From IMG/VR virus record IMGVR_UViG_3300016649_000355: a stretch of 64,000 bases of DNA, one strand, 5' to 3'. The notes beneath the pieces are model-generated. The model ran no database searches. It was given only the letters and a program-made list of their open reading frames with translations, and was not told where the DNA came from. Every line of letters begins with the position of its first letter. The first letter of the stretch is position 1. The stretch is from a virus. Lineage: Duplodnaviria; Caudoviricetes. Below, one piece after another: positions 2,687-26,900 of this stretch. A program made the translations under genes and the position numbers.

Positions 2687-3052
2687 ATGTTGACGCAGCA
2701 ACCCAATAGACCTTTTTGCCAGCATTGTAAAATCGTCCTTGCTAAACCTAACGGGACGAGCAAGCACGGATTCAAAAAATGGCACAAATATTGTTCAAGT
2801 TGCTCAAAATATTTTTACGATAAGAAATATAAACATCTAGCAGTTAAGAAATCGATCTGCGATTCTTGTGGTTTTGTTCCAGTCGATATGTGCCAGCTAG
2901 ATTTGATCTATCTAGATGGGGATCAAAATAACAAAAAGAATTCTAATCTTAAAACACTGTGCGCTAATTGCAATAGGTTATTTCAAAAAAATATCAAGAA
3001 GAGCAAAAAGAAACTGTTAGACATAACAGTAGATGCCGATGTGAGACTATAA
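2687..3052 (+). CDS. Zn-binding HNH-fold protein with degenerate catalytic residues
   Basis: Four CxxC motifs (CQHC, CSSC, CDSC, CANC). The HNH core reads DLIYLDGDQNN..N...LCANCN, where active members typically read DHIDG..N..N...LCxxCH. Confidence 0.7.
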   Translation: MLTQQPNRPFCQHCKIVLAKPNGTSKHGFKKWHKYCSSCSKYFYDKKYKHLAVKKSICDSCGFVPVDMCQLDLIYLDGDQNNKKNSNLKTLCANCNRLFQKNIKKSKKKLLDITVDADVRL

Positions 3053-9064: not shown

Positions 9065-9072
9065 TATTTAGT
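9065..9072 (-). promoter_or_regulatory. Late promoter box (ACTAAATA), 6 nt before the portal ATG
   Basis: Box overlapping the tape-measure stop codon; no SD before ATG 9058. Confidence 0.65.
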
Positions 9073-12000
9073 TAAACCTGTGAGTACCGTAATATCTTAT
9101 CTTGAATACTATTGCTATCATCTAACTTAGTGATCATGGTGTCTAACTTTTCAGCTAGCATTGAAATCATTTCCATATTAATTGCTTCATTGCGTGAATT
9201 GTCTGTTTCGATTGGTGCGGGAGCCGAGGCCACTGTGGCAGATTCTGCGGGAGTTTCCATAAGTTTCTTTAATAAAGAATTCATTGGTGCAACTAATTCT
9301 TCACCGTGCAGCATTACAGGATAACCTGTATTTGGTCCTTTAAATATCCCACCATCCATTGCCTGAGGCGTTCCGGATTCTTTCATGAATGCCTGTGCTA
9401 GTTGGGCCCTTCGTGCAGTTTCTTCTTGACCCCCTGCATAACCTACAGCTTTACCGACCGCTGCGATATCTGTGAGATCGACACCCCGTTTTTCTTTTTC
9501 TTTAAAATACGCAGCAGCAATTTGTGCTGCAACATCAGGATCATTTGCAAGATCAGGATTTTCTACTAAATCTATACCTAACAGTTTTCCAAACTTTTCG
9601 TAGTTTGCTTTACCGGTTAATTGTATCAATCCGCGGCCGCGATACTTAAATCCTTCATCGGCAGCGTTGCCCATTCTTCCGCCGTATATCAAGTTTCCGA
9701 TAGCTTCAGGTCCTTGCGCAGCTAGTTGTTCAGCTTCTTCTAATGACTGGAATCGTACTTTATTTCCGCCCTTGTTTCCTGCGCCATATAATTCAAAAAG
9801 TTTTTTACCACTATAATTAAGATTTTCCGATCTTGATTTAAATCCGGACTCTGCTTGAACCTGCGCAAGTATGTTTGCTTGAGCAGCACCACCTGTTATA
9901 CCTTGTGCTTTCAGTGCTTCAAATAGTTTTTCTTGTTGTTGTCCTTTAGGTATAGTTAAACCTGTACCTAAAGCACCTTCCATCCCCTTGGTAGCGGTAG
10001 TTGTTTCTGCTTTTAATCCTATACCAGTCGATGGTTTTTCAGGAACTTTAATTCCCATACCATCTGATAATTTTTTAATTGCTTTTGAATATTCATTTGT
10101 AGAAGAGTCAATAATATCTGCAAATCTACTTTCTTTATCTTCTACATTTTCAATTTCTTTATTGACATCTTGAAGTTGTGTGTTGAATTTATTAAAGCTA
10201 ACAAGCACATTTCCCAATACTTTATCTACATCAATAAAACTTTTTGACAAATCAGTTGAAATCTTTAATTCTTTTTCTTTTTCACTTAGTAATTCATGGG
10301 TAAGTTCTTGAATAGATTCGATATGGTCATCTGTTTTTAAGGACTTGATCATTCCGCTCAAATTAGATATTTCTGTTAAAAGTTTTTCATTATTCAATCC
10401 GGTTATATCGACCGGTACTGTTCTGTTTTCTGACAAAGGTATAACTGCTTCAGGACCTGCTTCACCTGCGATAGTAGGACCTTTAGTTATTCCTCCCTTT
10501 GCCATTAATGGCATTTCAGGTAAACCTAAATCTTTGGTATCAAGATTGACAGATTTTTTCATTTTTGCAAGATCATTGCCCGCTAACCCACCTAAACTCT
10601 TTCCTGCCATGCCGCCAAATAATTGACCTCCCATTCCCCCCAATGCTGCTCCTAGTATTCCACCAATCGCAGTTCCTATTATAGGAACAACGGAACCTAT
10701 GGCAGCTCCGGCTGCGGCCCCGGCTAATGCACCTCCGACTCCCCCTGCTGCGCCACCAACCCCCTCACCCACCACTTCAGACTTTTTAACTGTGGCTTCT
10801 TTAGCAGTTATTTTACCTTCTTGTTTTTCTTTTTCTACCTTTTCTAATCCTTCTACTGCATCGCTAGCACTACTAACGACACCTACTAGTGCCCCTACGG
10901 GACCTGCAACCTTGCCCAATATACCTAAAGTTTTTCCTAATGCACCGTCAGCTTTGCCAAACGCGCCCTTAGCTGGTTCAGGTTCCGGCGGTTTAGTAAA
11001 TCTACCTTTATCATCTCTATATCTACCATCTTTACCCTGCGTTACTTTGCCCTTGTCTTTTAATGCGTCCCTTGAGTCACCTTTTATATTTCCACCTAAT
11101 GCACCCACAGCAGCAATTTTACCCAAAGCTATTGCTGCTGCGCCGGCCGCTGCTGCTAATGCACCGGCTGCTGCTGTTGCAAGTCCAAATCCCTTCATTA
11201 ACGGATTAAACTCTTGAACAACTTTGTCTAATCCAATCTGAATAGTGCGTTCTGTTTCTTGTAATGTAGCTCTTATATCTTTTGATGTATCTTGACCTTC
11301 TTCGCCGGCAGCCTTGATTTTTGCGGCAGCAGCATCTCTTGCTCCTTTTTCGTCGATGTCTCTTCTACCTGCCAAAAATTGTAAGAATTCTTTTTCTAGT
11401 CCAAATGCTTCTCTAACTTCTTTACTGAGCATACCGGCCGCACCAACACTATCTACAGTTTCATCTCCGGCTTTTTTCAATGCATTCATGAAATCGCTAG
11501 TGACATCTTCTCCCCTAGCCATTCTTTCCTTGAATTCTTCAAGCGGAATTCCCATTCTTGTTAAGAACGCATTTTGCTCATTGATGGCGCCGGTAGCAAA
11601 GAAGTTTGCGACGGCATCAGTTAATTTTTCACTTCCTGTCTGCGTTTTTACTGTTGCTAATAAATCATTTCTTGCTTTTAATTCATCTTCTAATACTTTG
11701 GCTCTTGCTTTGTCTTCTTCAGTTCCCGATGCCCTTAACCTATTAATTTCACGCTGTTGTATATTTGTTTGAATTAATGTTTCTTCTCTACTCAGTGCTG
11801 CTGCTTGTTCAGCTTTAACTGTATCAACATTTTTACCGGTAATTGCGGCAAGTTCTAATAAGTTATCAGTATATTCTAAACTTGCTTTTCTAAGGGAGCC
11901 GTCTCTTTTCATCTGCTCAGTGATCTGCATACCACTAGCTCTTTGCAATGATACATAATCAGCTTGATTTTGTAACAATTCTTCTTGGCTGACACCTAAA

Positions 12001-12698
12001 CGGCTATATCGCATTCTTTCTTCTTTGCTGATAGTAGCCATTTGAGTAAATGCTTCTGCACCTTTTCCTGCATCAGCACCCAATGATGTTAAGGCAGCGC
12101 CCATAGAGGCTAAAGGTTTCGTCAATAAGTTAAGATTTTTGCTTGTTAGTCCAACTTCATGTGCTAAGGATAAAAAACGATCAGCAGTAAATTGACCTGC
12201 GGCACCGAATTTAGTCATGTCATCTACTGCTTTTAGCGTGTTGTCAGCTTGTTCTAGTCCTGCTTTAGCGACCATGGTAAATGCTTTGACAGCACCGCCC
12301 AATGCCATGCCTAAGATACCAAAATTCTTTCCTAGACTGAACGCTGCATCACCGGCAGAATCTAAAGCACCACCGTATTTTGTGAATCCTTGCGTAGTAC
12401 TGAGTAATGCTTTTCCCAGACCTTTCACACTGTCTGTGGCAGAATTAAGACTTCTGCTGAAATTTGCCATGGCTTCGGCATATTTCTTTTCTTGTTCCGC
12501 TCTGATTTCTTCTGCCTTAGTGACACTGGCGGCACTGGTAGCGACATTTCCTAATCCTGTTGCTGCATTTGTTCCTGCACTCTTTATCGTTGCTCCTGCC
12601 GCACCCGCAGTTTTTGCAAGATTAGGTAATACAGTATTCAACTGTTGAAGATTTTCATTCAACTGTCGTATCAGTTCAGGATCTAAATTATCAGCCAT
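9072..12698 (-). CDS. Tape-measure-like protein with C-terminal GH19 (chitinase/lysozyme-like) peptidoglycan hydrolase domain
   Basis: Ala/Gly-rich helical protein with Gly-zipper segments and a MAKGG...GEAGPEAVIPL motif; GH19 motifs AQVQAESG..ENLNYS and KYRGRGLIQLTGKANY at ~9500-9900. Probable start is ATG 12698 rather than GTG 12710. Confidence 0.8.
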   Translation of the reverse strand: MADNLDPELIRQLNENLQQLNTVLPNLAKTAGAAGATIKSAGTNAATGLGNVATSAASVTKAEEIRAEQEKKYAEAMANFSRSLNSATDSVKGLGKALLSTTQGFTKYGGALDSAGDAAFSLGKNFGILGMALGGAVKAFTMVAKAGLEQADNTLKAVDDMTKFGAAGQFTADRFLSLAHEVGLTSKNLNLLTKPLASMGAALTSLGADAGKGAEAFTQMATISKEERMRYSRLGVSQEELLQNQADYVSLQRASGMQITEQMKRDGSLRKASLEYTDNLLELAAITGKNVDTVKAEQAAALSREETLIQTNIQQREINRLRASGTEEDKARAKVLEDELKARNDLLATVKTQTGSEKLTDAVANFFATGAINEQNAFLTRMGIPLEEFKERMARGEDVTSDFMNALKKAGDETVDSVGAAGMLSKEVREAFGLEKEFLQFLAGRRDIDEKGARDAAAAKIKAAGEEGQDTSKDIRATLQETERTIQIGLDKVVQEFNPLMKGFGLATAAAGALAAAAGAAAIALGKIAAVGALGGNIKGDSRDALKDKGKVTQGKDGRYRDDKGRFTKPPEPEPAKGAFGKADGALGKTLGILGKVAGPVGALVGVVSSASDAVEGLEKVEKEKQEGKITAKEATVKKSEVVGEGVGGAAGGVGGALAGAAAGAAIGSVVPIIGTAIGGILGAALGGMGGQLFGGMAGKSLGGLAGNDLAKMKKSVNLDTKDLGLPEMPLMAKGGITKGPTIAGEAGPEAVIPLSENRTVPVDITGLNNEKLLTEISNLSGMIKSLKTDDHIESIQELTHELLSEKEKELKISTDLSKSFIDVDKVLGNVLVSFNKFNTQLQDVNKEIENVEDKESRFADIIDSSTNEYSKAIKKLSDGMGIKVPEKPSTGIGLKAETTTATKGMEGALGTGLTIPKGQQQEKLFEALKAQGITGGAAQANILAQVQAESGFKSRSENLNYSGKKLFELYGAGNKGGNKVRFQSLEEAEQLAAQGPEAIGNLIYGGRMGNAADEGFKYRGRGLIQLTGKANYEKFGKLLGIDLVENPDLANDPDVAAQIAAAYFKEKEKRGVDLTDIAAVGKAVGYAGGQEETARRAQLAQAFMKESGTPQAMDGGIFKGPNTGYPVMLHGEELVAPMNSLLKKLMETPAESATVASAPAPIETDNSRNEAINMEMISMLAEKLDTMITKLDDSNSIQDKILRYSQV

Positions 12699-12708
12699 TT
12701 TTTTACCC

Positions 12709-12730
12709 ACTAAATATTATTATATTTAGT
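12709..12730. promoter_or_regulatory. Palindromic pair of divergent late promoters (ACTAAATAT-tatt-ATATTTAGT)
   Basis: Perfect 9-bp inverted repeat, each arm an ACTAAATA box, between divergent genes. Confidence 0.75.
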
Positions 12731-12765: not shown

Positions 12766-13596
12766 ATGTCAATAGCTCACAATCCATTAAAACAATATTT
12801 CCGTAGACCTTCAGTTTATTTTAAATTACCTAGCGGAGGAAAAGGGTATAAATCAGGGGTAGTCAACATCCCTGAATCAGGGGAACTTCCTGTTTATCCA
12901 ATGACAGCGATTGATGAGATTACTACTAAAACTCCTGACGCATTGTTTAATGGTACTGCAATGGTAGATATTATTAAAAGTTGTGTCCCTGATATCAAAG
13001 ATCCCTGGGCCATTACCTCAGTAGATTTAGATGCAGTATTAATCGCTATCAGGGCAGCAGGTGGCGGTTCGGATCTAGAGATCGAATCAGAATGTCCGTC
13101 ATGTAAAGAAGTTTCAAGTTATGGTGTAAATCTGTCTGCAATGTTAGCAAACATGAAAGCAGGAGATTATGATAAAGATTTAAATATTCATGACCTCAGT
13201 ATTAAGTTTAGACCATTAACTTATAAAGAACTCAATCAAGCAGGACTTGCTCAATTTGAGATACAAAGAGTATTTTCCGGTATCGAAAGGATTGAGGATG
13301 AAGAAGAGCGAAACAAAAAAACACAAGACGCACTAAAATCAATCACATTACTTACCATGCAAGTCCTAGCACAAGCGGTTGAAGTGATCAGGACCCCAGG
13401 AACAGAAGTCACTGAACAAGAATTTATTGTCGATTTCCTACAAAATTGCGATAAAAATACATACATCGCTATCAGAGACTTTCATTCTAAACTTAAAGAA
13501 CAAACTGAATTAAAACCATTGCGCATCAAATGCGTAAGCTGCACACATGAGTATGATCAACCATTTACATTGAACCCAAGCGATTTTTTCGGTTAA
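12766..13596 (+). CDS. Baseplate hub / tape-measure assembly chaperone (T4 gp26-like)
   Basis: NPLKQYFRRP..LPSGG, VYPMTAIDE, DLDAVLIAIRAA motifs; CPSC and CVSC Zn ligands; AAAGGA SD; divergent from tape measure. Confidence 0.8.
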   Translation: MSIAHNPLKQYFRRPSVYFKLPSGGKGYKSGVVNIPESGELPVYPMTAIDEITTKTPDALFNGTAMVDIIKSCVPDIKDPWAITSVDLDAVLIAIRAAGGGSDLEIESECPSCKEVSSYGVNLSAMLANMKAGDYDKDLNIHDLSIKFRPLTYKELNQAGLAQFEIQRVFSGIERIEDEEERNKKTQDALKSITLLTMQVLAQAVEVIRTPGTEVTEQEFIVDFLQNCDKNTYIAIRDFHSKLKEQTELKPLRIKCVSCTHEYDQPFTLNPSDFFG

Positions 13597-13632
13597 GGCT
13601 TCTGTATTCCAATTATGAGGAACTACAGAAGC
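13584..13632 (+). promoter_or_regulatory. Candidate -1 programmed ribosomal frameshift signal: slippery heptamer T_TTT_TTC plus stimulatory hairpin
   Basis: Heptamer 13584-13590 in correct phase two codons before the stop; 7-nt spacer; stem GCTTCTGTA-TTCC / GGAA-c-TACAGAAGC (13598-13632). Confidence 0.75.
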
Positions 13633-13820
13633 TCATAGAAACCTATGAAAAAGATGTAAACAATATCAAAAAGAATTGTTTATCTCTAAGTTGGTATATG
13701 CGTGGCGGTGCTTCGTATGAAGATGTTCTGAATATGTCTTCATCCGAAAGAAATCTAATCGGCGAAATAGTAGATAGCAACTTAGAAGTCACCAAGAAAA
13801 GTCAATTGCCTTTCTTTTAA
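13590..13820 (+). CDS. gp51-like chaperone segment in the -1 frame (76 aa, RLRLLYSNYEELQKLIE...WYMRGGASYEDVLNMSSSER...KSQLPFF)
   Basis: Not in the ORF track. Frame is open from 13557 to 13820; first ATG is at 13698 with no SD, which would give only 40 aa. Confidence 0.7.
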   Translation, partial: RLRLLYSNYEELQKLIETYEKDVNNIKKNCLSLSWYMRGGASYEDVLNMSSSERNLIGEIVDSNLEVTKKSQLPFF

Positions 13821-13878
13821 AGTTGTCTTTCAGACAACTAATACCATCGCTCGTAAACTCGCTCGGTATTTCTTTTTT
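13821..13878. other. Twin hairpins at the convergence of two operons (possible terminator or ssDNA/RNA structure)
   Basis: AGTTGTC-tttca-GACAACT, then AATACC...GGTATT followed by TCTTTTTT on the plus strand; the second hairpin holds two GAGCGA copies on the minus strand. Confidence 0.55.
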
Positions 13879-14247
13879 ATTAAATCAATAGAACTTATTG
13901 CCGCTCAGAAGCCATGGTAGTGCTATTCAGCACTACCAATGGAAATTGCCATGCCCTTCTTCCATAGCTGCTTATACCCGTGATATCGCCTCTGTATGAC
14001 ATATCACGCTACCGGTTGCCCTTTAAAGTTTATGGTCTGTAGTGAAGCTATCACGATAAATTGTGACTCTTCGGCAACGCACATCCCGCGACATCAAAGC
14101 AGAGTATTCACGGGCTTGTCGAGGGTTCGCTTTGTCGATTGCCCTCTCGGTATTCCAAGGATAGGAATGTATCCTTGCTTTACTCCAGATCCGTCGGCAC
14201 AGCACTACCTGTACTTCCTCAAGGAGGTCTGACAACTCAGACAACAA
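13821..14247 (-). ncRNA. Putative large structured non-coding RNA or structured DNA element (~430 nt), family not recognised
   Basis: At least 8 clean stems; GC 47-53% in the two 60-nt lines counted, against AT-rich flanks; no credible ORF. Strand inferred from the upstream resolvase transcript and G-A pairing. Confidence 0.6.
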
Positions 14248-14250
14248 ATT

Positions 14251-14814
14251 TTATAGTACTACTGGGGTAGTTGTGATTTCTAATGGACTTGACTTGGTGT
14301 CGTTTGAGCCAGTGCAGTATACTTTAAATAATTCAGTATTGTGTTTGAAAAAATGATCGAAATCTATGATGAGCCAGTCTTTGTGACAGTTTGATGTGTA
14401 ATATAAAAATTGGTCCGTTACCCAGGTTCTATTGCTAGGTACAATTACGAATTTACCTTTTCTAGTGATCTTTAAAAATAGTATATTTAGATCACTTGAT
14501 TCGGCAACTGTCATCAATTGATCTAACCATGATTCTAAAACTTTGCAATCTCCGGACAATACAAGATTAAAGGGAAATTCTTTGTAATTTTTACATTCTG
14601 CGTTAAGGTGTTTGAATGACTCTCCTGGAACAATATCACCCTTGAAAGTGCGAATCTGCCCTTCGTGCAAAGTATTTTTTCTAGACTGATTTTTTCCGCC
14701 TATATAGGCACCAGAGCCCGGTGCCCGTATAAAACTTTCATTATAAGTCTCTGAAAGAAATTTTGCTACTTCTCTTTCGAAACTTGAACCCTTTGTTTTT
14801 TGTGGAGATGTCAT
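14251..14814 (-). CDS. Hjc-type PD-(D/E)xK Holliday junction resolvase
   Basis: KGSSFEREVAKFL, SGAYIGG, GDIVP, AECKNY motifs. Confidence 0.8.
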   Translation of the reverse strand: MTSPQKTKGSSFEREVAKFLSETYNESFIRAPGSGAYIGGKNQSRKNTLHEGQIRTFKGDIVPGESFKHLNAECKNYKEFPFNLVLSGDCKVLESWLDQLMTVAESSDLNILFLKITRKGKFVIVPSNRTWVTDQFLYYTSNCHKDWLIIDFDHFFKHNTELFKVYCTGSNDTKSSPLEITTTPVVL

Positions 14815-23955: not shown

Positions 23956-26900
23956 TGGCACAAGATGAATTTTTGCCGCGTGGCTCTACAAAAGCCAGCA
24001 AACCCACGGCCGGTGGTGCAAACATACGATCAGTACCTGTAATAGGCATCGTAAAAAATAATATAGACCCTATCAAGGCAGGCCGTATACAAGTATATCT
24101 ACTAGATAATAGCGGAACAGACCCCGATAATTCTGAAAATTGGAAAACAGTAAACTTCCTCTCTACCTTCTTTGGATTCACATCCGGTAGCGCAGCAAAC
24201 GAAGGTTATGGTACATACACAAAGAATCCAACAGCTTACGGTCAATGGAATAGTCCTCCCGATATCGGAACTAGGGTGTTATGCATTTTTGTAAACGGTG
24301 ATGAAAATTATGGTTATTACATAGGCTGTATTCCAGAACCTGAGACACTTTTTATGGTTCCTGCAATCGGCGCTACTGAAAATATCGTAGCTAATGAGGG
24401 TGAAGCTCAGAGTTACGGTGGTGCTACAAAATTACCGGTCAGTAGTTTAAATGTAAACAATCAAGGAATCAACGATAATCCGTCTTTTTTAAAAGAAGCG
24501 AGACCTGTACATAGCTATGCTGCAAGCGTGATGTTTCAGCAAGGTATATTGCGTGATCCTATAAGGGGAGCGATATCAAGTTCATCACAGCGAGAAACTC
24601 CTAGCAGGGTAGGCTGGGGAGTAAGCACTCCAGGCAGACCTATATATGAGGGAGGTTTCACGGATGAATCAGCAGTACAGAATTTAGATTCACCAAATCC
24701 AAAACAACTTAAAATCATTTCCCGGCGAGCAGGACATACTATTGTCATGGATGATGGGGACCAGATAGGTAGGGACCAGTTGGTTCGCATCAGGACAGCA
24801 ATGGGTCATCAGATTTTAATGAGCGATGATGGACAGTGTTTGTTCATATTACACAGCAATGGACAATCTTGGATAGAATTAGGAAAAGAAGGCACTATTG
24901 ATATGTATGCTACAAATAGTGTCAATATAAGGACTCAGGGTGATCTTAACCTGCATGCTGATAATAATATCAATTTACATGCTAAGAAAAATTTCAATTT
25001 GCAAGCAGAAAATATCAATGTAAACACTGAAAAAGAATACAAACAACGGGTGGGAACAAATTATCTCAACTACACAATGGGCAAATATATGCACAAAGTA
25101 GATGGCACCATGAGCTGGGATAGCAAGGGCGTTGCATCCTATGCAAGCAGTGATGTAACATATATCAATGGGTCTAAGATAAATCTCAATACTGGCTCTA
25201 CCAGCGCGGTGCCTGAAGTTGTTCCTCCTATTCCAGTCATAGCGCATACTGACACATTGTTCGATCAAACTAAAGGATTTATAGCAGCGCCCGCTAAATT
25301 GATAAGCATAACATCGAGGACCCCCGCACATCAGCCTTGGGTAAATTCAGGACAGGGAGTAGATGTAAAAGTTAGCTTGAACGCAAGTTCAGAATTACCC
25401 TCACCACCTAGCGCATCTGTTACTGCGTTGAACTCTGCTAGCCAAGGTGCTGCCACGGCTACTCCAACCGTGGCTTCATCAGCAACGGTTCCAGGCAGCA
25501 TACCGATTAGTTCTGCATTGGATAAGGCAACTACAAGCACACTTGTTAGTGCAGCAGCGACATCAGCAGCAGCAGGACCCGCTGCATCTGCTATAGCTAA
25601 GGGTGCGGGTATAGTTAATACCGCACAAGGAGCCATAGCAGTAGTAGGTTCTACCGCTTTAAATCCAAAACAATTACAAACGGCCGGCATACTCAAGCCC
25701 GGAGCAGCAACATTGATCAATGGATTGACGCAGGGTGGTGCCAATGTCAACGCAGCCATGACTACGAATTTATTTACAGGAAAACCCGGGGCAGAATCAT
25801 TGTCATCTTTAGTACAAAATCCTGCTGGGCAGGTAAACGCAACTGTAGTGAATCTTCAAAAGGCACAGACTGCACTTACATCATCAGGCGTACTCACAGG
25901 AAAAGAAGCTCCCGGCGCGATAGCAGGAGTTGTTAATGCTGCGTCAAGTCTTGGAGTAACGCCAACATTAGATGCCCTCAAAACAGTAGCAGGTAATCCT
26001 AACGCAGTTTCTTCGTTGATACCTTCTAGTAAATCATTAGGGGCAGTAAGTCAAGCAGTCAGTACCGGCAATTTCGCAGCTGGATTAGCAACAAATGTAA
26101 CTGGAGGATTGGGCGCTGTTGCAGGAGCATTGGCGGCTAAATCGGGAGGCGTACCCGGATTGTCAGGCGCCATCGATCAAGCGAAAGGTCTTGCAGGTTC
26201 AGCATTCGCTGCAATTGCATCTTCATTCCAACCACTCAAAGCAGGAGTACCGCAAAATCTTGGGGCTATCGCGGGGGCAGCGGCTGAGAAAGTTGCATCT
26301 GAAGCAGCAAGTCCACTAAGTGGAGGTAGCCTACCTAAACTATCAGTGCCATCGATTGGGAGTCTAGGTTCGGGATTGATTCCAACTGCGGGGGGAGTAA
26401 CAGGAATATCTAGCACTATTGCTAGTGGACTATCATCACTACCGGGAGGACAAAGTGCAATCTCATCGGTATTTAATAATGCACCCGGTGTGAAGTACCA
26501 ATTGCCCGGTGGAGAGGGTGTAAGTAATCTTGTTAAAAATGCATCAACATCCGCATTGAATAATATATCATTAGGCAAAGCAGCCACATCGGGACTAACA
26601 AGCGCATTGAGTACAGCAGGAGGAGGATTAAATGTTGGATCATTGCAGTCATCTGTTGGTTCATTAGCGGGATCATTAACCGGCGGACTGGATAAATTAA
26701 AATCAGGATCAGGTAGTTTAGCATCTTTAGCACTATCAGGGATACCTGCAGGAATCGCAGCACAGATGAATTCTGCATTGAGTTCATTGAGTTCAGGTGG
26801 AAGTTTACCGATCAAAGTACCTGCAGTTGCTATTAATACCACCAATAGAGATGAGATAGGAGCTAGTGTTACTTCAACTTTAGGGGACGCTAAAATTCCT

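What the first reader, a model, noticed from the sequence alone, without database searches (positions are those of the whole stretch)
13557..13820. Hidden -1 ribosomal frameshift fusing gp26-like and gp51-like chaperones (lambda G/GT logic in a T4-like phage)
Seen: the gp26-like ORF ends GAT TTT TTC GGT TAA, giving an in-phase X_XXY_YYZ heptamer T_TTT_TTC (13584-13590). Seven nt later a 13-bp stem forms (GCTTCTGTA-TTCC / GGAA-c-TACAGAAGC, 13598-13632). The -1 frame is open for 76 codons past the site, and its only ATG lies 36 codons in with no SD. Known: tail assembly chaperones of lambda and many long-tailed phages are made as G and G-T by -1 frameshift beside the tape measure gene; T4 gp26 and gp51 are annotated as separate genes acting in hub/gp29 assembly. 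Inference: a 276-aa product plus a ~351-aa fusion, implying gp26/gp51 equal G/T in this clade. I know of no description for this group but cannot check the literature.
Basis: partly seen in the sequence, partly recalled or inferred. Interest (0 to 1): 0.9.

Follow-up and report, generated by a model that had tools for sequence, protein, structure and literature searches.

The report
Frameshift makes two baseplate-hub chaperone forms
One tail-assembly gene of this giant T4-related phage very probably makes a short and a long protein, because some ribosomes slip back one base at a conserved TTTTTTC run followed by an RNA hairpin; phage T4 encodes the same two forms as separate genes (26 and 51), and I found no published report of the slip.

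Summary
ORF 12766-13596 belongs to the T4 gp26/gp51 family (Pfam PF12322). It ends GAT TTT TTC GGT TAA, so U_UUU_UUC (13584-13590) lies in phase. A 13-bp hairpin follows after 7 nt (z -5.2). The -1 frame stays open for 76 codons.

The site is conserved. The in-phase heptamer occurs in 128 of 130 related loci, and the other two carry different slippery heptamers. It also occurs in five isolated jumbo phages at 26-34% identity, in KVP40, and in 80 of 80 cyanophage loci. The -1 frame shows coding periodicity from the slip site onward. No start codon is conserved there. The hairpin shows compensatory changes.

The conceptual 351-aa fusion is collinear with T4 gp51, which is PF12322 plus a C-terminal tail (tail comparison E 9.5e-7). 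The jumbo phages have one PF12322 gene; T4 has two.

I read this as a real programmed -1 frameshift (about 0.9). It works like lambda G/GT, but I found no homology to G/GT. A role as tape-measure chaperone is inferred only.

No record I read and no paper I found describes the frameshift. This scan has already noted the same thing on other DNA: 64 notes in at least 57 genomes.

The parts
12766..13596 (+). Zero-frame ORF, 276 aa: short form of a gp26/gp51-family (PF12322) baseplate-hub assembly protein with two CxxC pairs (C110/C113, C256/C259)
   Evidence: Pfam PF12322 E 5e-17, 62.8 bits against a cut-off of 24.5; phrog_150 'baseplate hub'. The cysteines are invariant or nearly so. AlphaFold2 model: pLDDT 95.5, pTM 0.89.
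13584..13590 (+). Slippery heptamer U_UUU_UUC in X_XXY_YYZ phase (Phe274 and Phe275 codons)
   Evidence: Identical and in phase in 128 of 130 related loci. The other two have T_TTT_TTA or A_AAT_TTT. Also present in KVP40, S-PM2, P-SSM2 and 80 of 80 cyanophage loci.
13591..13597 (+). 7-nt spacer containing the zero-frame stop TAA (13594-13596)
   Evidence: The stop lies one codon after the heptamer in 122 of 130 loci.
13598..13632 (+). Stimulatory stem-loop: 13 bp, bulged C at 13623, loop 13611-13618
   Evidence: MFE z -5.18. The outer helix pairs in at least 90% of 60 diverse sequences, with GC->AU, UA->CG and CG->UA double changes. The post-heptamer window is among the lowest 5% of its own gene's folding energies in 80% of 70 loci.
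13633..13648 (+). Second small hairpin (6 bp) directly abutting the first; role unknown
   Evidence: It is seen in only some relatives.
13590..13820 (+). -1 frame extension, 76 codons plus TAA: gp51-C-tail-like helical domain. It gives a 351-aa long form when joined after Phe275.
   Evidence: Codon-position entropy is 0.95/0.72/1.43 upstream of the first ATG. hhalign against the gp51 tail gives E 9.5e-7. The model is helical, pLDDT 89.9.
9072..12710 (-). Divergent neighbour: tape-measure-like protein of about 1210 aa with a lysin/GH19 domain. This is the presumed client of the chaperone (inferred).
   Evidence: phrog_794 tape measure E 9.8e-20; phrog_181 endolysin E 7e-43; PF00182. The same divergent synteny occurs in PA5oct, 121Q, RaK2 and Phosso.

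Best explanation
The gp26-like gene is decoded in two ways. Most ribosomes read TTT TTC GGT and stop at TAA, which gives a 276-aa short form. A fraction pause on U_UUU_UUC, held by the hairpin 7 nt downstream. Both tRNA-Phe then re-pair one base back (UUU/UUC to UUU/UUU), and translation continues in the -1 frame for 76 more codons. That gives a 351-aa long form with a small helical C-terminal domain.

The short form corresponds to T4 gp26 and the long form to T4 gp51. T4 encodes the two as separate paralogous genes.

Shown here:
- the signals are present and conserved;
- the -1 frame is coding from the slip site;
- the fusion is collinear with gp51;
- the jumbo phages have one family gene where T4 has two.

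Inferred:
- that slippage actually happens, and at what ratio;
- that the pair acts on the tape measure protein and hub as lambda G and GT act on gpH and gpV.
For: 1. Heptamer conservation. It is in phase in 130 of 130 loci (96 distinct genes): 128 are T_TTT_TTC. It is also in five isolated jumbo phages at 26-34% protein identity, in KVP40, S-PM2, P-SSM2 and HTVC008M, and in 80 of 80 cyanophage loci.

2. Selection acts on the nucleotides, not only on Phe-Phe. The slip-site FF is coded TTT-TTC in about 98% of genes. The FF at the end of the extension in the same genes is TTT-TTC in 7 of 78. TTC makes up only 32% of Phe codons elsewhere in these genes. T4 gp26 keeps the FF but codes it TTC TTT, which is not slippery.

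3. The -1 ORF is always 71-77 codons in this clade, and the other frames carry stops in 87 of 87 sequences. Codon periodicity upstream of the first ATG (0.95/0.72/1.43) matches that of the upstream gene (1.09/0.83/1.45).

4. The first possible start codon in the -1 frame ranges from codon 2 to codon 38 of the extension (offsets 1-37 after its first codon), and one gene has none.

5. The stem-loop is conserved and shows compensatory changes.

6. Homology to gp51. Extension profile against gp51 tail: prob 91.3%, E 9.5e-7. Fusion profile against full-length gp51: collinear through the junction, global prob 95.5%, E 5e-9. T4 gp51 is PF12322 plus a tail.

7. Atu_ph07, PA5oct, 121Q and RaK2 each have one PF12322 gene; T4 has two.

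8. In S-PM2 and KVP40 the gene order is tube-like, gp26, -1 ORF, then a large protein on the same strand. In S-PM2 the large protein has a tape-measure hit. This is the order I recall for G/GT.
Against: There is no direct evidence for the long product: no proteomic, ribosome-profiling or reporter data.

Thirteen of 96 genes have an ATG at codon 2 of the -1 ORF, overlapping the stop (ATGA or TAATG), so coupled re-initiation could add to expression there.

In 121Q and RaK2 the stem is weak within a 44-nt window.

No sequence or fold link to lambda-type chaperones was found.

In this window the gene is divergent from the tape-measure-like gene, not upstream of it on the same strand.
Confidence: 0.87

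Rival explanations
1. There are two separate genes. The downstream ORF is translated on its own by independent initiation, or by termination-reinitiation at the overlapping stop. This is how S-PM2, KVP40, 121Q, Phosso and Turkey5 are annotated.
For: Several records annotate a separate small CDS. Thirteen of 96 genes have an ATG at codon 2 of the -1 ORF. Thirty-five of 63 cyanophage genes have a Met at codon 4.
Against: In this window no ATG, GTG or TTG occurs in the first 36 conserved codons. The position of the first start is not conserved. Coding conservation begins at the heptamer itself. This reading does not explain the nucleotide-level fixation of T_TTT_TTC or the stem at 7 nt. T4 carries the same tail fused in frame to a gp26-like body.
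Confidence: 0.06
2. Transcriptional slippage. RNA polymerase adds one U at the T6 run, so a subset of mRNAs encodes the fusion in a single frame.
For: An extra U would give the same protein. Homopolymer slippage is known in bacteria and phages (general knowledge).
Against: From general knowledge, a run of six is shorter than the runs of about 8-9 that usually slip. One relative uses A_AAT_TTT, which is not a homopolymer but is a valid tandem-slippage site. A hairpin at 5-9 nt is the signature of ribosomal frameshifting. The Z base is fixed as C, which keeps the run short.
Confidence: 0.04
3. It is a chance T-run, a sequencing error or a decaying gene, and the downstream frame is meaningless.
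For: None beyond the general frequency of T-runs in AT-rich phage DNA.
Against: The arrangement is the same in more than 200 independent loci from several phage families, and the -1 frame is under purifying selection.
Confidence: 0.01

Closest known systems
Lambda gpG/gpGT and the conserved -1 frameshift of tail assembly chaperone genes in long-tailed phages, including P2 E/E+E' (Xu, Hendrix & Duda 2004; recalled from memory, the paper is not held)
   Same: A -1 slip on an X_XXY_YYZ heptamer near the end of a small assembly gene. It gives a short and a long form with a shared N-terminus. The proteins are needed for assembly and are thought to be absent from the virion. The gene sits next to the tape measure gene. 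In S-PM2 and KVP40 the order is tube-like gene, this gene, large protein, on one strand.
   Different: No Pfam, PHROG or fold match to G/T-type chaperones. The short form is larger (276 aa) and has a zinc-ribbon-like pair of CxxC motifs. In this window the gene is divergent from the tape-measure-like gene. Binding partners are untested.
Bacteriophage T4 gp26 and gp51, listed as hub assembly chaperones by Leiman et al. 2010 (PMC3004832)
   Same: Same Pfam family, PF12322. The short form ends where gp26 ends (...FF plus 1-3 residues). The long form is collinear with gp51, including its C-terminal tail.
   Different: T4 uses two paralogous genes, divergently arranged, and has no slippery site: gp26 has TTC TTT and gp51 has GTG TTT AAG. 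T4 proteins are shorter (208 and 249 aa). The gp51 tail is about 48 aa against 76 aa here.
The annotated 'gp26' plus mini 'gp51' ORF pairs of cyanophage S-PM2 and vibriophage KVP40
   Same: Same gene pair and the same T_TTT_TTC one codon before the stop. The -1 ORF is recognised by the annotators as similar to the C-terminus of T4 gp51.
   Different: Those records treat the second ORF as an independent 55-57-aa gene. None of the 12 records I read joins the two by ribosomal slippage.

Membership tests
Canonical programmed -1 ribosomal frameshift site (tandem slippage) | X_XXY_YYZ heptamer in the zero-frame phase | tested here: met
   T_TTT_TTC at 13584-13590, in phase. Conserved in 128 of 130 loci, and the other two carry alternative heptamers.
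Canonical programmed -1 ribosomal frameshift site (tandem slippage) | Stable RNA structure 5-9 nt downstream, conserved as a structure | tested here: met
   7-nt spacer and a 13-bp stem, z -5.18. Covariation score 0.261 against 0.189 in shuffles (0 of 500 as high), and above all slid registers. The post-heptamer window is in the lowest 5% of its own gene's folding energies in 80% of 70 loci.
Canonical programmed -1 ribosomal frameshift site (tandem slippage) | -1 frame open and under coding selection from the slip site, with no start of its own | tested here: met
   76 codons open. Periodicity 0.95/0.72/1.43 before the first ATG. The first start varies from codon 2 to codon 38 of the extension (offsets 1-37).
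Canonical programmed -1 ribosomal frameshift site (tandem slippage) | Trans-frame protein actually produced | not testable with these tools
   Needs a reporter assay, mass spectrometry or ribosome profiling.
Pfam PF12322 T4_baseplate (T4 gp26/gp51 family) | Profile match above the curated cut-off over the whole domain | tested here: met
   62.8 bits against a cut-off of 24.5, residues 50-275 on profile positions 34-218 of 219. T4 gp26 and gp51 both match the same profile.
T4 gp51 (long form) equivalence | C-terminal tail beyond the PF12322 domain that is homologous to the gp51 tail and collinear with it | tested here: met
   hhalign of extension against gp51 tail: prob 91.3%, E 9.5e-7 over 38 columns. 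Fusion against full gp51, global mode: prob 95.5%, E 5e-9, aligned through the junction.
Lambda G/GT-type tail assembly chaperone | Gene lies between the tail tube gene and the tape measure gene on the same strand | tested here: not met
   In this window the gene is adjacent to the tape-measure-like gene but divergent from it, and the 10 of the 20 large ORFs between 17.6 and 64 kb that I scanned gave no tube match. The order is met in the relatives S-PM2 and KVP40.
Lambda G/GT-type tail assembly chaperone | Sequence or fold homology to known G/T chaperone families | tested here: inconclusive
   No chaperone family appears in the Pfam or PHROG scans. Foldseek and VIA-align against the PDB gave only generic helical-hairpin matches.
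Lambda G/GT-type tail assembly chaperone | Short form binds the tape measure protein; the extra domain of the long form binds the tube protein | not testable with these tools
   Needs pull-downs or co-expression experiments.

The most novel reading that the evidence does not exclude
The gp26/gp51 family is the long-missing G/GT equivalent of the whole T4-like superfamily. In this reading, an ancestral single gene with a -1 frameshift survives in RaK2-like and other jumbo phages, cyanophages, a pelagiphage and KVP40. T4 and its close relatives replaced it by duplication into a short gene (26) and an in-frame long gene (51). That would make the enigmatic 'hub assembly catalyst' gp51 the bridging chaperone that couples the tape measure protein to tube initiation.
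Probability: 0.45. Interest if true: 0.85.

Novelty: new member of a known kind. Interest (0 to 1): 0.75.

Why it matters
Nearly all long-tailed phages make their tail assembly chaperones as a frameshifted short/long pair. As far as I recall, T4-like phages were the notable group with no such pair identified.

This finding places a textbook -1 frameshift in the gp26 gene of a very large group of phages. The family has 1113 clusters at 50% identity, and it includes abundant marine cyanophages.

It has three practical consequences:
- It explains the orphan mini 'gp51' ORFs in those genomes.
- It gives a testable role for T4 gp26 and gp51, whose functions have been unclear since the 1970s.
- It shows that annotation needs correcting: none of the 12 public records I read joins the two ORFs, and the same heptamer recurs in over 200 loci from public collections.

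It also offers a natural experiment, one frameshifted gene against two genes, for asking why a fixed ratio of chaperone forms matters.

Tried and rejected
- Nucleotide search against isolated phages found no close relative.

- Fold searches of the short-form model (PDB by Foldseek, the 48,161-chain VIA-align search, AlphaFold Swiss-Prot) and of the extension model (PDB by Foldseek) gave nothing above generic helical hairpins. No structural link to known chaperones can be claimed or excluded.

- Complex prediction of the tape-measure-like protein (residues 1-720) with the short form returned no verdict (score 0.00). That is neither for nor against binding.

- A direct HMM of the extension against T4 gp51 was only marginal (E 0.003 in a search space of two sequences). 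A profile-profile comparison was needed.

- A fixed-column test of the inner stem was blurred because the bulge register differs between lineages. I therefore used per-sequence folding energies.

- No whole genome is held for this window, so I could not count PF12322 copies in this phage itself. I used complete relatives instead.

- Ten literature searches and several papers gave no description of the frameshift. Xu et al. 2004 is not held.

- Rfam and tRNA scans of 13500-14400 gave nothing significant.

- The simple terminator scan found no intrinsic terminator after 13820.

Full report
**What is in the window**

ORF 12766-13596 (+) encodes 276 aa ending NPSDFFG*. Its last codons are GAT TTT TTC GGT TAA. 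T_TTT_TTC at 13584-13590 is therefore in X_XXY_YYZ phase.

Seven nucleotides later, 13598-13632 forms a 13-bp stem with one bulged C. The 67-nt stretch folds at -22.8 kcal/mol, against -9.6 +/- 2.55 for shuffles (z -5.18). A second 6-bp hairpin abuts the first.

The -1 frame is open from just upstream of the heptamer to TAA 13818-13820. That is 76 codons after the slip, and the other two frames are closed. The first ATG, GTG or TTG in that frame is ATG 13698, codon 37.

**What the gene is**

The ORF matches Pfam PF12322 T4_baseplate (E 5e-17) and phrog_150 'baseplate hub'.

Its neighbours are as follows:
- A divergent protein of about 1210 aa with tape-measure and lysin/GH19 matches.
- Behind that, T4-like portal, prohead protease and major capsid genes.
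- Downstream on the minus strand, a PDDEXK nuclease, gp46/47-like SbcCD and a late sigma factor.

The closest isolated phages are jumbo myoviruses: Atu_ph07, Phosso, PA5oct, 121Q, RaK2, GAP32 and others, at 26-34% identity. Metagenomes hold thousands of closer relatives.

**Conservation of the recoding signals**

I examined 130 loci with 96 distinct gene sequences. These are IMG/VR contigs, five isolates and the window itself.
- 128 loci have T_TTT_TTC in phase. One has T_TTT_TTA and one has A_AAT_TTT.
- The stop follows one codon after the heptamer in 122 loci.
- The -1 ORF is always 71-77 codons.

The five isolates share under 35% protein identity with the window yet keep the identical heptamer.

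Phe-Phe conservation alone does not explain this.
- T4 gp26 keeps ...EFFELL* but codes it TTC TTT.
- The same jumbo-phage genes end their extension with another FF. That one is coded TTC-TTC or TTC-TTT in 71 of 78 genes and TTT-TTC in only 7.
- TTC is the minority Phe codon elsewhere in these genes, at 32%.

**The -1 frame is coding from the slip site**

I compared 87 distinct sequences without gaps.
- Codons 1-36 of the extension lie upstream of the only ATG in the window. Their position entropies are 0.95/0.72/1.43. The upstream gene gives 1.09/0.83/1.45.
- Synonymous differences are 2.7 to 4.3 times more frequent in this frame than in the other two.
- The other two frames carry stops in 87 of 87 sequences.

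The first possible start codon ranges from codon 2 to codon 38 of the extension (offsets 1-37 after its first codon), and one gene has none. So there is no conserved independent start.

**The stem**

The outer helix is GCUUCU/AGAAGC in most sequences. It pairs in at least 90% of 60 diverse sequences and shows double changes: GC->AU in 6, UA->CG in 2, CG->UA in 3. The covariation score is 0.261 against 0.189 in shuffles (0 of 500 as high), and it exceeds all slid registers.

The inner helix changes register between lineages. More distant relatives use unrelated stem sequences, for example GCCUAAC/GUUAGGC and GGUCCUUAA/UUAAGAGACC.

In 80% of 70 diverse loci, the window just after the heptamer is among the 5% most stable windows of its own gene (median z -2.8).

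**Relation to T4**

In T4, gene 26 (208 aa) is followed by gene 25, and gene 51 is divergent from gene 26.

T4 gp51 (249 aa) is itself PF12322 over residues 1-201 (E 3.9e-52), plus a tail of about 48 aa. Its homologues carry PF12322 plus PF28602.

A profile of the extension matches a profile of the gp51 tail at prob 91.3%, E 9.5e-7. A profile of the conceptual fusion aligns with full-length gp51 collinearly through the junction (sdFFR.rLL.l.pe.I against i.iFkL..LlnPDEiF). In global mode this gives prob 95.5%, E 5e-9; in local mode 77.9%, E 1.9e-5.

Earlier notes of this scan pointed me to this test. Before reading them I had rated 'gp51-like' at about 15%.

Complete genomes of Atu_ph07, PA5oct, 121Q and RaK2 each have one PF12322 gene. 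T4 has two.

**Breadth**

S-PM2, P-SSM2, HTVC008M and KVP40 each have one PF12322 match. It ends in T_TTT_TTC (T_TTT_TTT in HTVC008M), followed by a gp51-tail-like -1 ORF.

All 80 cyanophage-clade IMG/VR loci (63 distinct genes) have T_TTT_TTC one codon before the stop. The Met used as the annotated start of 'gp51' in S-PM2 is conserved in only 35 of 63.

The S-PM2 and KVP40 records annotate the -1 ORF as a separate mini gp51. The KVP40 note calls it similar to the C-terminus of T4 gp51.

In those two phages the gene order on one strand is tube-like protein, gp26, -1 ORF, large protein. The large protein has a tape-measure hit in S-PM2.

Among the 150 best cluster representatives, 126 end in FF within their last 14 residues, mostly 1-4 residues before the end.

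**Mechanism and function**

The signals are those of canonical tandem slippage. Both codons are read by tRNA-Phe, which can re-pair on UUU after a one-base shift (general knowledge).

The function is inferred. T4 gp26 and gp51 are listed as hub assembly chaperones (PMC3004832), and the hub contains the tape measure protein gp29. A short/long chaperone pair beside the tape measure gene works like lambda G/GT.

Membership of the G/GT families is not shown. There is no family or fold match. The short form is a confidently predicted alpha/beta protein with no similar solved structure (pLDDT 95.5). The extension is a three-helix unit (pLDDT 89.9).

**Rivals**

- Independent initiation or re-initiation fits only the minority of genes with an ATG at the stop. 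It leaves the heptamer, the stem and the gp51 collinearity unexplained.
- Transcriptional slippage is unlikely on a six-base run, and it cannot apply to the A_AAT_TTT variant.
- Chance or error is excluded by conservation.

**Novelty**

None of the 12 public records I read joins the two ORFs. Ten full-text searches found no description. The key 2004 paper is not held, so my statement about T4-like phages in that paper rests on memory.

This scan has already reported the same feature on other DNA: 64 notes in at least 57 genomes. My score rests on what I tested here.

Noticed in passing
L144 (Rhodothermus phage RM378, NC_004735 about 26400-26700): The PF12322 gene ends ...TCC TTT TTT TGG AAT AAG TTA TGA. 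The continuation (FFGISYDSEEELEKIVV...) lies in the +1 frame, not -1. This could be a homopolymer error in an old record, an in-frame long form, or a different recoding event.
   Followed up: no
L050:2314-2330 and L051:2314-2330; L142 (HTVC008M): These loci have variant slippery sites in the same phase. L050 has A_AAT_TTT. L051 has T_TTT_TTA directly followed by TAA. HTVC008M has T_TTT_TTT followed by TAA. The function appears to be kept while the sequence changes.
   Followed up: partly
window 13633-13648: A second 6-bp hairpin (CUCAUAG...CUAUGA) directly abuts the stimulatory stem. It is present in only some relatives. It could stack on the first stem.
   Followed up: partly
window 13813-13820 versus 13585-13590: The short form ends ...DFFG and the long form ends ...LPFF, so both have an FF near the C-terminus. 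The terminal FF of the extension avoids the slippery codon pair: it is TTC-TTC or TTC-TTT in 71 of 78 relatives.
   Followed up: partly
window 9072-12710 (-): The tape-measure-like protein carries a GH19/endolysin-like domain at residues about 780-1106. Its true start is probably ATG 12698 rather than GTG 12710. It is the first gene of the operon that continues into the portal, protease and capsid genes.
   Followed up: partly
window 13821-14250: This is about 430 nt without an ORF, lying between the extension's stop and the next minus-strand gene. There is no Rfam match above threshold, no tRNA, and no simple terminator match.
   Followed up: partly
window 2687-3052 (+): A small HNH-endonuclease-like ORF lies on the opposite strand, between the capsid gene and a large fibre-like gene. 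It is probably a mobile homing nuclease.
   Followed up: no
L147:7640-8386 (KVP40) and L148:3678-4466 (S-PM2): A tail-tube paralogue (phrog_45) lies directly upstream of gp26 in both phages. The 656-aa KVP40.0326 after the -1 ORF has no annotated function, but it sits where a tape measure gene would be.
   Followed up: partly
L006:3803-4090 (T4 gene 26'): The T4 record annotates an internal in-frame product of gene 26, called 26'. So T4 already makes two forms of gp26 that share a C-terminus, in addition to the paralogue gp51.
   Followed up: no
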